This document shows, piece by piece, positions 3,001 to 6,000 of a stretch of DNA of 13,112 bases; position 1 is the stretch's first letter; every line of letters starts with the position of its first letter. Origin of the DNA: a virus (taxonomy: Duplodnaviria; Heunggongvirae; Uroviricota; Caudoviricetes). The position numbers were made by a program. The stretch is taken from the IMG/VR virus record IMGVR_UViG_2695420523_000015. One strand, written 5' to 3'.

Positions 3001-6000
3001 GGTGAGATTGAGTCATTGCTCGCCCTGATTAAGCAGCTTACAGGTAAGGCAGGTAGCTGGCTGATTGCTGCATCGGGTGATGATGCAATATGCGTCAATG
3101 ACTGAATCCTTTGTTGTTCTGAATATCATGAAATTAAGGGGGTGCAGTAATGCAGCAAATAACACTGGCAGAAGCCTCACTGCAAGCGCAACAGGTCGAA
3201 GTAATTAGCCGCATGATTGAACGCAACCACGAAGAAATAGACGACCATGACCTTTCTGTTATTGCAGGACTTATCAAACAACTTTCCAGCAATGTGGCGG
3301 TGTGGTTAATGACGGAGGAAGAAAAACGCGGCGAACAATAACGGCTAAAAATAAACGGGAAATAAATATTAAGACGACTCCTTCAGGAGATTAATTCAAT
3401 AGCATCAAAAAATACTGGCTTAACTGCCAGTAGCAAAACTCACCCCGAATTTATGTGCGGGGATATTTACCGCAATGAATACGGTAGCCACATGACGATG
3501 ATCAGCAGAGGTAAGAAATGAAAAGCGCACCGAACTTAAAAAAACAGCCTCGAGGGAAAAAGCACGCCGATACGGAAGTGATTATTTTCGCTGGCAGTGA
3601 TGCGTGGGCGCACGCGAAACAGTGGCTGGAGCAGGACGGAAAACTTGCCGGAGATAATATACCGCCCGTCGTGCTGGCTGATGAGCAACTTAAAGATATT
3701 GGCAATCTGCAAATTGTACCCGACGGGCGCAAATCAGCGCGTATATACAAGGCCGGACACCTCGATCAGGTGATGGTCAAAGGCATAGGTCAGAAGCTGG
3801 CGGCGGCAGGCGTACAGGACGCAGACTATTACCCCGAAGGTATGCACCATAACGAGCGGCAGAACTGGCGTAACTATCTGGAGACTGAGCGCAAAAACAT
3901 TTCTGACGGGCTGGTTATTGAGCTGCCTGTAAAGAAAAAAGAGCGGGGAAAAGGTGATGATGCCACATCACTGGCGCTAAACCAGATGGGGGCAAGCCAG
4001 CGCGGCGAAGTTCTTCTGGCACATTATGGCGGCGAACTGGCAATAAACGCCGACTCTGACACAGTGCATTATTACAACAGTGTTGTATGGGTTCCCGTAC
4101 AGGATAAAGAGCTACAGCGCACAATGGCGCAAATCTTCATTGACGAAGATATCTGCTATTCACAAAACGCCATAAAATCGGCGGTTGATACCATGAAGTT
4201 AAGTTTACCCGTAATGGGGAATACCGCCCGCAACCTGATTGGATTCAGTAACGGGGTATTTGATACCCGTACAGGTGATTTCCGTGAACACGATAAAAAT
4301 GACTGGCTGTTAATTGCCAGTGAATTACCGTTCACCCCACCAGCAGAGGGTGAAACGCTGGCAACACATGCGCCGAATTTCTGGAAATGGTTGCGCCGTT
4401 CGGTGGCTGAGAATGACCGCAAGGCAGATCGCGTTCTGGCAGCGTTATTTATGGTGCTGGCGAACCGGTACGACTGGCAGTTATTCATTGAGGTAACAGG
4501 TCCTGGTGGAAGCGGTAAAAGTGTTATGGCAGAGATTTGTACCATGCTGGCAGGTAAGGCCAACACGGTATCGGCAAGCATGAAGGCACTGGAGGATGCA
4601 AGGGAACGTGCATTAGTGGTTGGCTTTTCACTGATTATTCTGCCGGATATGACCCGCTACGCGGGTGATGGTGCAGGGATAAAGGCCATTACGGGCGGTG
4701 ACAAGGTGGCAATTGACCCGAAACACAAAGCGCCATACTCAACGCGTATTCCGGCGGTTGTGCTGGCGGTTAACAACAGCGCCATGTCATTCAGTGACCG
4801 CAGCGGGGGGATCTCACGTCGTCGTGTGATATTCAATTTTTCGGAGGTTGTACCGGAAAACGAACGCGATCCGATGCTGCCGGAAAAAATAGAAGGTGAG
4901 CTTGCTGTAGTGATTCGTCATCTGCTTACACGGTTTGCTGATCAGGACGAAGCCAGACGCCTTTTATATGAGCAGCAGAAATCAGAAGAAGCACTGGCGA
5001 TAAAGCGTGAGGGGGATTCGCTGGTGGACTTCTGCGGCTATCTCATGTCGTCGGTAATGTGTGACGGCCTGTTAGTCGGTAATGCTGAGATTATTCCTTT
5101 CAGTCCACGCCGTTATCTTTATCACGCCTATCTCTCGTATATGAGGGCGCACGGTTTCAGTAAGCCCGTAACACTGACGCGCTTCGGTGCAGATATGCCA
5201 GGCGCAATGGCGGAATATGGCAGGGAGTATATGAAAAAGAGAACTAAAGAAGGTGTGCGATCAAACGTGATACTGACGGATGAGTCTGAGGACTGGCTGC
5301 CGTCATGTGCACCAGTGAAAAATGAGGGTGATAAAAATTAAGTTATAGAAAAACTGTTCACCACTGTTCACCCTGCAATAAATGTATTTAGTATCAATAT
5401 GTTAATGGGTGAACACTTTTGTAAAACTATTCACCAAAGTATTCACCTGTTCACCTTTTTGTATGATTTTTGAACAGTCACGGGTGAACAGGGTGAACAG
5501 TTGGTGAACACCTTTACAAAAAGTGTTCACCCCTTAACTTTATGAATCTAAAGGTGAAATAGCAAAAGGTGAACAGTTGAACACCTTTTGGGTATAAATT
5601 TTTATTTATTCCTCTGAGAAAAATTTTATGACAGAGAAACACGCTAAAAAATCACACTCACACGCCATCGATTTAACCGAACAGGGATCAGCAAAAGATC
5701 CGCACGGGCAATCGCTCACCATTTCATGACGCTGTATGACCTGAAAGCGGAAGATGCAGAAAAAGCGGCATGTGATTTATTCGATATGACAATGGGGATT
5801 ATCCAGGAGTACCGGAACAAGGAGCGCAGACCATGACAGCACAAATTGCAGCTTACGGGCGGCTGGTGGACGACCCGCAGGTAAAACAGACCAGCAAGGG
5901 AACAGCGATGACGCTGGCGCGTATGGCGGTATCACTGCCATGCAGTCAGGCACAGGACGGACAGGCGACGTTATGGCTATCAGTCCTGGCATTTGGTAAG

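What the first reader, a model, noticed from the sequence alone, without database searches (positions are those of the whole stretch)
3518..5584. P4-type replicon: alpha-like helicase plus a cluster of at least nine TGTTCACC iterons
The octamer TGTTCACC is the type I iteron bound by P4 alpha at ori and crr. Finding at least nine exact copies in both orientations within 230 bp, right after an SF3-helicase gene with Walker A GPGGSGKS, identifies a P4-like replication module. The protein is 607 aa against 777 aa for P4 alpha and I could not recognise a primase motif in its N-terminal 300 residues, so it may be a helicase-only variant that relies on another primase.
Basis: partly seen in the sequence, partly recalled or inferred. 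Interest (0 to 1): 0.5.

Follow-up and report, generated by a model that had tools for sequence, protein, structure and literature searches.

The report
PICI replicon with P4-type iterons
This is the self-replication module of a known E. coli phage satellite (a PICI): a helicase related to phage P4's alpha protein, followed by a mirror-symmetric origin built from P4's own 8-base binding site. It is real but ordinary, apart from an unnamed N-terminal domain that stands where P4 has its primase.

Summary
There are nine exact TGTTCACC copies (expected 0.42) and three one-mismatch copies at 5355-5583, starting 13 bp after the stop codon of a 607-aa gene (3518-5341). There are none elsewhere in the window.

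The protein is 49% identical to P4 alpha over its D5_N, SF3 helicase and winged-helix origin-binding domains. The last domain matches PDB 1KA8 at E=1e-23. It lacks alpha's Zn-ribbon and Toprim primase.

The 12 sites form six mirror pairs about one axis at 5469/5470. Each arm aligns with the P4 ori1 core. The same geometry lies behind homologues across Enterobacterales, including the experimentally tested EcCICFT073 origin, with other iteron words.

Stretch 3300-5900 is 100% identical to part of EcCIRM13514, a PICI catalogued in 2018. So this is a PICI Pri-Rep/ori replicon, not a P4-family satellite.

The N-terminal ~130 aa form a narrow domain with no Pfam match. It has a weak Toprim-like fold and no catalytic acidic motifs, and it is fused elsewhere to four different helicase types. 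Priming most likely comes from the host; this is inferred, not shown.

Novelty is low, and the N-terminal domain is the only open question.

The parts
3518..5341 (+). Gene for the 607-aa initiator-helicase (PICI 'Pri-Rep', P4 alpha-like; identical to RefSeq WP_000833603.1)
   Evidence: ORF. RefSeq CDS at the same coordinates. 49% identical to P4 alpha residues 301-771. phrog_864 E=4.5e-184.
3518..3922 (+). N-terminal domain (aa 1-135), no Pfam match, weak Toprim-like alpha/beta fold without the catalytic E and DxD; it occupies the position of P4 alpha's Zn-ribbon + Toprim primase
4007..4396 (+). D5_N domain (aa 164-293)
   Evidence: Pfam PF08706 E=3.9e-12. Aligns with P4 alpha 336-467.
4496..4822 (+). 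SF3 (AAA+) helicase core (aa 327-435), with Walker A GPGGSGKS at nt 4499-4522
   Evidence: Pfam DUF5906 E=9.7e-10 and a weaker PPV_E1_C match. Matches SaPI5 PriRep5 helicase (PDB 7OLA) at E=1e-9. G328, G331, G333, K334, S335, N420, R434 and R435 are invariant in the alignment.
5009..5302 (+). C-terminal winged-helix origin-binding domain (aa 498-595)
   Evidence: Pfam Pox_D5 E=7.8e-13. PDB 1KA8 (P4 alpha C-terminal domain) E=1.1e-23. An iteron-class-specific loop lies at about aa 570-583.
5355..5455 (.). Left arm of the origin: sites at 5355>, 5365>, 5408<, 5428>(TATTCACC), 5440>(TATTCACC), 5448>. AT-rich spacer at 5373-5407.
   Evidence: Aligns with the reverse complement of the P4 ori1 core (score 85). 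GC 25-32%.
5456..5482 (.). Central 27-bp spacer holding the dyad axis (5469/5470); T-rich half TTTTTGTATGATTTTTG
   Evidence: The six mirror pairs of sites have midpoints 5469-5470, computed from the coordinates. Inverted repeat I1.
5483..5583 (.). Right arm of the origin: sites at 5483<, 5492<, 5503<, 5524>, 5568<, 5576<(TGTTCAAC). AT-rich spacer at 5532-5567.
   Evidence: Aligns with P4 ori1 9307-9416 (score 85). Site gaps are 9, 11, 21, 44, 8, against 10, 11, 22, 43, 10 in P4.
5584..5640 (.). AT-rich flank (GC 22-30%) after the last iteron; a possible additional unwinding region
   Evidence: P4 ori1 has a similar A-rich flank after its last iteron.
5833..6282 (+). Island-encoded single-stranded DNA-binding protein, the next gene in the same direction; a probable accessory of the replicon
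   Evidence: Pfam SSB E=2.3e-16. An SSB sits in the same position in EcCICFT073. No terminator-like site between the helicase gene and ssb.

Best explanation
This is the autonomous replicon of an E. coli phage-inducible chromosomal island (PICI) of the EcCIRM13514 type. The 607-aa protein is a self-loading initiator-helicase related to P4 alpha. Its C-terminal winged-helix domain recognises the TGTTCACC iterons. The 12 sites lie as six mirror pairs about one axis immediately 3' of the gene. That layout would place two helicase assemblies head to head around AT-rich DNA, which they melt and then unwind with the SF3 motor. Shown here: homology of every domain, identity of the iteron word with P4's, conservation of the site geometry across homologues, and absence of the Zn-ribbon and Toprim primase. 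Shown by others for a homologue: EcCICFT073 pri-rep plus the region 3' of it maintains a plasmid in E. coli without a helper phage. Inferred: binding of this protein to these sites, double-hexamer loading, and priming by a host enzyme (most likely DnaG), because the N-terminal domain lacks primase catalytic motifs. The island's SSB gene just downstream probably assists.
For: Nine exact sites against 0.42 expected, plus three near-exact sites. 49% identity to P4 alpha over D5_N, SF3 and the origin-binding domain. The origin-binding domain matches 1KA8 at E=1e-23 and the helicase matches SaPI5 PriRep5 7OLA at E=1e-9. Each arm aligns with P4 ori1 with matching site spacings. All 80 related loci from other species carry a repeated-word cluster within 450 bp after the gene. 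The geometry is the same even where the word differs: TGTCTACC, TCTCCACC, CTGTCC(G/A)C. Iteron class tracks changes in one loop of the winged-helix domain. EcCICFT073 Pri-Rep has the same architecture and N-domain (48% identity overall by BLASTP; 67% over aa 1-135), and its origin has the same layout. That replicon was shown to work in DH5alpha (PMC6092414). Stretch 3300-5900 is 100% identical to part of the listed PICI EcCIRM13514. The island context is int, HTH regulator, Rha, AntA/Ash, Pri-Rep, SSB, ProQ/FinO and PerC, all transcribed in one direction, with no structural or lysis genes.
Against: There is no direct binding or replication evidence for this allele. NCBIfam TIGR01613 (P4-family primase C-terminal domain) scores 95 bits, below its 108.7 cut-off. 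Upstream genes of the island are pseudogenised in some strains, so some copies may be inactive. The claim that the protein lacks primase activity rests on missing motifs and on the absence of sequence similarity, not on an assay. The N-domain is strongly conserved and could have an unknown catalytic role.
Confidence: 0.85

Rival explanations
1. The protein really is bifunctional, as its database name ('DNA primase family protein', 'Pri-Rep') says. On this view the N-terminal domain is a minimal or novel primase that needs no Zn-ribbon and no classical Toprim acidic residues.
For: The best named fold matches are DnaG-type primases in three searches. The domain sits exactly where primase domains sit in P4 alpha, T7 gp4 and Toprim-DUF927 proteins. 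It has invariant or near-invariant charged residues: E20, D46, R71, R75, E115. EcCICFT073 Pri-Rep with the same domain supports plasmid replication without a helper phage.
Confidence: 0.15
2. It is a P4-family satellite replicon in the strict sense. On this view the cluster after the gene is the crr (cis replication region), as in P4, and the true origin lies elsewhere in the element.
For: In P4 the cluster directly after alpha is crr, not ori. The iteron word is the same. The element carries Ash/epsilon-like and Icd-like genes.
Against: Both halves of the cluster align better with P4 ori1 (score 85 each) than with crr (51 and 73). No other TGTTCACC cluster exists in the window or in the complete island L001. 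No psu, delta or sid was found among the ORFs scanned or in the RefSeq annotation of the island. In EcCICFT073, deleting the equivalent region lowers plasmid maintenance.
Confidence: 0.07
3. The island is a decaying remnant and the module no longer functions. On this view the iterons persist only because the insertion is recent.
For: AntA/Ash and Icd-like genes are truncated or fused differently among strains. No packaging or capsid-redirection genes were recognised in this island.
Against: The 607-aa reading frame is intact, and the identical protein accession WP_000833603.1 is annotated at three loci in different strains. 517 E. coli genomes hold at least 80% of the 3300-5900 stretch. Site geometry is kept across genera while the surrounding sequence diverges. 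All helicase motifs are intact.
Confidence: 0.1

Closest known systems
EcCICFT073 Pri-Rep and ori (Gram-negative PICI replicon; Fillol-Salom et al. 2018, PMC6092414)
   Same: Same protein architecture: N-domain, D5_N, SF3 helicase, winged helix. Identity is 48% overall (BLASTP) and 67% over aa 1-135. The origin lies directly 3' of the gene with the same 12-site mirror layout and AT-rich spacers. An SSB gene and a PerC gene follow. The island type is the same, and the sister island EcCIRM13514, with an identical replicon stretch, is listed in that paper's Table S1.
   Different: The iteron word is TGTCTACC, not TGTTCACC. The helicase and origin-binding body are only 33-57% identical. EcCICFT073 also carries capsid genes that this island lacks.
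Phage P4 alpha protein with ori1 and crr
   Same: D5_N, SF3 helicase and origin-binding domain are homologous (49% identity; 1KA8 E=1e-23). The iteron TGTTCACC is identical. Each arm of the window origin reproduces the ori1 pattern <<< > << with nearly the same spacings and shares the motif TGTTCACCC(T/C)TTAACTT. An iteron cluster lies right after the gene.
   Different: P4 alpha has a Zn-ribbon (aa 30-66) and a Toprim domain (aa 210-299) that provide primase activity; both are absent here. P4 splits its sites into ori1 (one arm) and crr (two 120-bp direct repeats) about 4.7 kb apart. Here two arms are joined as one palindrome-like origin and there is no crr. P4 has a terminator between alpha and crr; none is predicted here.
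SaPI Rep / PriRep5 self-loading SF3 helicases (Qiao et al. 2022, PMC9371898; PDB 7OLA)
   Same: An SF3 helicase with a C-terminal winged-helix domain that binds iterons placed immediately downstream of its own gene, on both sides of an AT-rich centre and in opposite orientations. Sequence similarity in the ATPase core is E=1e-9.
   Different: SaPI iterons are 5-6 bp. The proteins are otherwise unrelated in sequence. SaPIs have a separate or fused recognisable primase.
[not shown]
   Different: TWINKLE is an SF4 (DnaB/T7 gp4-type) helicase. Whether the fold here descends from Toprim at all is only weakly supported.

Membership tests
P4 alpha protein family (primase-helicase-origin binding) | N-terminal primase: Zn-ribbon plus Toprim with the EGYATA motif | tested here: not met
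   P4 alpha hits Zn_Ribbon_Prim (E=1.9e-18) and Toprim_3 (E=1.2e-12). The window protein and its first 165 aa hit neither. hhalign probability is 0.05%.
P4 alpha protein family (primase-helicase-origin binding) | D5_N plus SF3 helicase core with Walker A | tested here: met
   PF08706, PF19263 and GPGGSGKS. SF3 region 65% identical to alpha.
P4 alpha protein family (primase-helicase-origin binding) | C-terminal winged-helix origin-binding domain | tested here: met
   PDB 1KA8 E=1.1e-23 over aa 499-595.
P4 alpha protein family (primase-helicase-origin binding) | NCBIfam TIGR01613 (phage/plasmid primase, P4 family, C-terminal domain) above its curated cut-off | tested here: not met
   95.0 bits against a cut-off of 108.7. 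The similarity is clear but falls below the curated threshold.
P4-type origin | Clustered type I iterons TGTTCACC in both orientations | tested here: met
   9 exact and 3 near-exact sites. Same word and spacings as the annotated P4 ori1.
P4-type origin | A second, distant cis-required region (crr) in addition to ori | tested here: not met
   No other cluster in the window or in the complete island.
P4-like satellite (SatelliteFinder core set: int, psu, delta, sid, alpA, epsilon/ash, alpha; PMC10085698) | psu-delta-sid capsid-hijacking operon | tested here: not met
   None among 12 window ORFs scanned with Pfam or PHROGs, nor in the RefSeq annotation of the complete islands. Window ORFs 10601-10999 and 11955-13034 were not scanned.
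Gram-negative PICI (Fillol-Salom 2018 criteria, PMC6092414) | int at one end, AlpA-type regulator, unidirectional transcription, pri-rep followed by ori | tested here: met
   The complete islands L001, L004 and L088 show int, a small HTH regulator, then Rha/AntA through Pri-Rep, SSB and PerC, all on one strand. The HTH protein was not itself tested for AlpA membership.
Gram-negative PICI (Fillol-Salom 2018 criteria, PMC6092414) | Origin made of two sets of iterons flanking AT-rich DNA, immediately 3' of rep | tested here: met
Gram-negative PICI (Fillol-Salom 2018 criteria, PMC6092414) | No phage structural or lysis genes; size about 10-15 kb; own attachment site | tested here: met
   The island of about 12 kb lies between yicC and dinD with no structural or lysis genes annotated. 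The same locus is listed as EcCIRM13514, 11.9 kb.
Gram-negative PICI (Fillol-Salom 2018 criteria, PMC6092414) | Induction by a helper phage and packaging into phage particles | not testable with these tools
   Needs experiments. No packaging module was recognised in this island. SatelliteFinder would call it an incomplete 'Type C' PICI.
Toprim fold (DnaG-type primase catalytic domain) | Toprim topology plus a conserved Glu after strand 1 and DxD after strand 3 | tested here: inconclusive
   [not shown]

The most novel reading that the evidence does not exclude
The roughly 130-aa N-terminal domain is an undescribed, exchangeable module of satellite replication initiators. It is found only at the extreme N-terminus and is fused to four unrelated helicase or ATPase bodies: P4-alpha type, DUF927, AAA_25 and VapE. 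It replaces the primase domain. It would act either as a new kind of minimal primase, or as an adaptor that captures the host or helper-phage priming machinery and so links satellite replication to its host or helper. Under this reading the 'Pri' in E. coli PICI 'Pri-Rep' is a misnomer, or else a new enzyme.
Probability: 0.3. Interest if true: 0.6.

Novelty: already known. Interest (0 to 1): 0.3.

Why it matters
The replicon itself adds little, because PICIs and their rep-plus-iteron origins are established and this exact stretch lies in a catalogued island.

Three details may be useful.
- A PICI origin here is built from P4's own iteron and from two inverted copies of the P4 ori1 core. This links the PICI and P4 replicons more closely than the 'distant homology' stated in the literature. 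It also suggests how P4's split ori/crr arrangement relates to a compact palindromic origin.
- Iteron words change among homologues while the site geometry stays fixed. The changes track one loop of the winged-helix domain, which gives a natural series for studying specificity and incompatibility among co-resident satellites.
- The proteins called 'DNA primase' or 'Pri-Rep' in these islands carry no recognisable primase. How these satellites prime DNA synthesis is therefore an open and testable question.

Tried and rejected
- Searching the literature for the bare octamer returned only unrelated primer sequences. One search failed on a term that was too short.
- DnaA boxes near the origin: no exact box, and the count of near-matches is as expected by chance.
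- Promoter and terminator scan of 5250-5900: nothing above the shuffled background and no terminator.
- Degenerate Toprim at the sequence level ('VIIFAGSDAWA' against alpha 'LWIAEGYATA'): rejected. hhalign against an alignment of 46 alpha N-termini gave probability 0.05%.
- Recognition motif R.YLYHAYL as the determinant of iteron specificity: rejected, because it is the same in loci with TCTCCACC iterons. The variable loop near aa 570-583 fits better.
- EcCIMP1 as the closest named PICI: rejected for the replicon. Its Rep is a 918-aa TOPRIM-plus-DUF927 protein, although the regulatory genes are similar.
- The AlphaFold database library was not available for fold search.

Full report
**Observation.** The octamer TGTTCACC occurs nine times exactly in the 13,112-base window. 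All nine lie between 5355 and 5575, four on the + strand and five on the - strand. Dinucleotide-preserving shuffles give a mean of 0.42 and never more than 3. With one mismatch allowed, three more sites join the same cluster: TATTCACC at 5428 and 5440, and TGTTCAAC at 5576. That makes 12 sites in 229 bp. No other cluster exists in the window, nor in a complete copy of the island (L001). The cluster starts 13 bp after the stop codon of ORF 3518-5341 (607 aa). RefSeq annotates this ORF at exactly these limits as WP_000833603.1, 'DNA primase family protein'. The Walker A motif GPGGSGKS is residues 328-335.

**The protein.**
- Pfam finds D5_N (aa 164-293), the SF3-type DUF5906 core (327-435) and Pox_D5 (498-594).
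- BLASTP against P4 alpha (777 aa) gives 49% identity over residues 122-597, matching alpha 301-771.
- The C-terminal ~100 residues match the solved P4 alpha origin-binding winged-helix domain, PDB 1KA8, at E=1.1e-23. The ATPase core matches SaPI5 PriRep5, PDB 7OLA, at E=1e-9.
- P4 alpha itself hits Zn_Ribbon_Prim (aa 30-66) and Toprim_3 (aa 210-299). The window protein hits neither, and its first 165 residues hit no Pfam family.
However, the stretch that does not align with alpha is about 120-150 residues, not 300.

**The origin.**
- The P4 record annotates TGTTCACC as the 'ori type 1 repeat'. It places crr (two 120-bp direct repeats) directly after alpha, and ori1 about 4.7 kb away.
- Local alignment shows that window 5480-5577 aligns with the P4 ori1 core, and window 5353-5472 aligns with its reverse complement. 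Both score 85, better than either half scores against crr (51 and 73).
- The site-to-site gaps of the right arm are 9, 11, 21, 44 and 8. P4 ori1 has 10, 11, 22, 43 and 10. The two share the extended motif TGTTCACCC(T/C)TTAACTT.
- The 12 window sites form six mirror pairs whose midpoints all fall at 5469-5470, as computed from the coordinates.
- The origin is thus a dyad of two P4-ori1-like arms around a 27-bp T-rich centre, with AT-rich spacers inside each arm (GC 25-32%).

**Conservation.**
- The same layout follows the 72%-identical gene of the capsid-encoding element deposited as phage vB_KppS-Ant.
- A scan of one genome per species returned 80 loci. Every one has a repeated-word cluster within 450 bp after the gene.
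- The geometry '>> < >>> | <<< > <<' is kept even where the word differs. TGTTCACC occurs in Klebsiella, Citrobacter, Raoultella, Pectobacterium, Pantoea and Xenorhabdus/Photorhabdus. TGTCTACC, TCTCCACC and CTGTCC(G/A)C occur in others.
- Iteron class tracks substitutions and insertions in one loop of the winged-helix domain, around aa 570-583. The conserved R.YLYHAYL helix does not track it. This is correlative and the loci are not independent. It is nevertheless what one expects if this domain reads these sites.

**What the element is.**
- Stretch 3300-5900 is 100% identical to E. coli O145:H28 RM13514 at 4533012-4535612.
- That range lies inside 4527455-4539396, which Table S1 of Fillol-Salom et al. 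2018 lists as the PICI EcCIRM13514 (11.9 kb, yicC-dinD).
- Related copies sit at yicC-dinD in an O157:H7 strain and next to a tRNA-Gly gene and type III secretion genes in other strains.
- The gene order is int, a small HTH regulator, Rha, AntA/Ash, small ORFs, the helicase, SSB, ProQ/FinO and PerC homologues, on one strand, with no structural or lysis genes. This fits the Gram-negative PICI definition.
[quoted passage not shown] It also shows that EcCICFT073 pri-rep plus ori maintains a plasmid in DH5alpha without a helper phage.
- EcCICFT073 Pri-Rep is 48% identical to the window protein and has the same domain order. Its origin has the same geometry, built from TGTCTACC.
- No psu, delta or sid is present, so the element fails the P4-like satellite definition.

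**The N-terminal domain.**
- A search of 1.84 billion representative proteins with residues 1-165 found only 82 clusters. In nearly all of them the match begins at or very near the protein's N-terminus.
- Full-length members fuse the domain to four different bodies: the P4-alpha type, DUF927, AAA_25 and VapE-like.
- Domain-wise identities show module shuffling. The window N-domain is closest to EcCICFT073 (67%), while its body is 79-93% identical to proteins whose N-termini differ.
- On the same helicase body, other species carry either the P4 Zn-ribbon/Toprim primase (about 810 aa) or a third, helical N-terminal module of about 110 aa.
- An AlphaFold model built from 17 sequences is confident (pLDDT 90.5) and shows an alternating strand-helix fold.
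- Foldseek finds nothing significant in the PDB; its best hits are again DnaG (E about 0.05). In BFVD it finds one uncharacterised phage protein (E=5e-4), followed by several DnaG-Toprim phage proteins.
- Profile comparison with the alpha Toprim region finds no similarity.
- Toprim carries its catalytic Glu at the end of strand 1 and DxD at the end of strand 3. At those positions this family has A25-G26 and A79-G80, invariant or nearly so. This placement is inferred from the predicted secondary structure.
- My reading: a Toprim-like fold, weakly supported, without the catalytic residues. Primase activity is unlikely but not excluded.

**Mechanism.**
- Shown: the homologies, the site geometry and its conservation.
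- Shown for a homologue: replication of a plasmid from rep plus ori without a helper phage.
- Inferred by analogy with P4 alpha and with SaPI Rep: the winged-helix domains bind the 12 sites, two helicase rings assemble head to head about the dyad, AT-rich DNA melts and the SF3 motor unwinds it.
- Inferred: priming comes from the host. No terminator separates the gene from the origin and ssb, so read-through transcription may also contribute; this is speculation.

**Verdict.** The element is a PICI rather than a P4-family satellite, and the identical replicon stretch lies inside an island that is already catalogued. Novelty of the finding as given is low. The unresolved point is the unnamed N-terminal module.

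Noticed in passing
window 3518-3922 (aa 1-135 of the helicase); proteins P0121, P0124, P0128, P0136, P0174: The N-terminal domain has no Pfam match, and only 82 clusters were found in 1.84 billion representatives. It is fused to four different replicative ATPase families: P4-alpha type, DUF927, AAA_25 and VapE-like. It looks like an exchangeable module that sits where a primase domain normally is.
   Followed up: partly
loci L016-L035 and L086 (Pectobacterium, Serratia, Yersinia, Rahnella, Pantoea and others), first ~110 aa of the alpha-like proteins: A third N-terminal module (motif SDALFSCxYxWVNGH, apparently helical) sits on the same helicase body. 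It is neither the Toprim primase nor the window's N-domain, so primase-less alpha-like initiators are common in Enterobacterales.
   Followed up: no
window aa ~570-583 (nt ~5225-5266) and the aligned loop in loci L007-L086: The loop 'EY.KK..K.G-(I/V)(R/Q)(S/T)N' of the winged-helix domain carries substitutions and insertions that follow the iteron word used downstream (TGTTCACC, TGTCTACC, TCTCCACC, CTGTCCRC). It is a candidate specificity determinant.
   Followed up: partly
window 838-2361: A 507-aa ORF fuses an AntA antirepressor N-terminus to an Ash (P4 epsilon-like) C-terminus. In related strains the same region is split, truncated or annotated as pseudogenes or as an 'Icd-like' protein, so this regulatory region is in flux.
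   Followed up: no
window 6299-6766, 6726-7028 and 7958-8422: A ProQ/FinO-family RNA-binding protein gene and two PerC-family regulator genes follow the replicon. Published work on PICI PerC homologues reports that some activate LEE virulence genes, others have no effect, and the EcCIMP1 homologue silences them (PMC6092414, PMC11773190).
   Followed up: no
window 5629-5730: A short ORF of about 33 codons lies between the origin and ssb. It is annotated as hypothetical in some strains and not at all in others. EcCICFT073 has an 85-aa hypothetical gene in the same position.
   Followed up: no
L002 (P4) 4281-4289: A perfect DnaA-box-like sequence, TTATCCACA, lies just outside P4 crr. No equivalent is present next to the window origin.
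   Followed up: partly
window 11955-13034 and locus L004 16386-22412: The right end of the window runs into a glycoside hydrolase family 15 gene. In the best-matching genome this gene adjoins a degraded type III secretion gene cluster beside a tRNA-Gly gene. This copy of the island therefore appears to sit at a different chromosomal site from EcCIRM13514 (yicC-dinD).
   Followed up: partly
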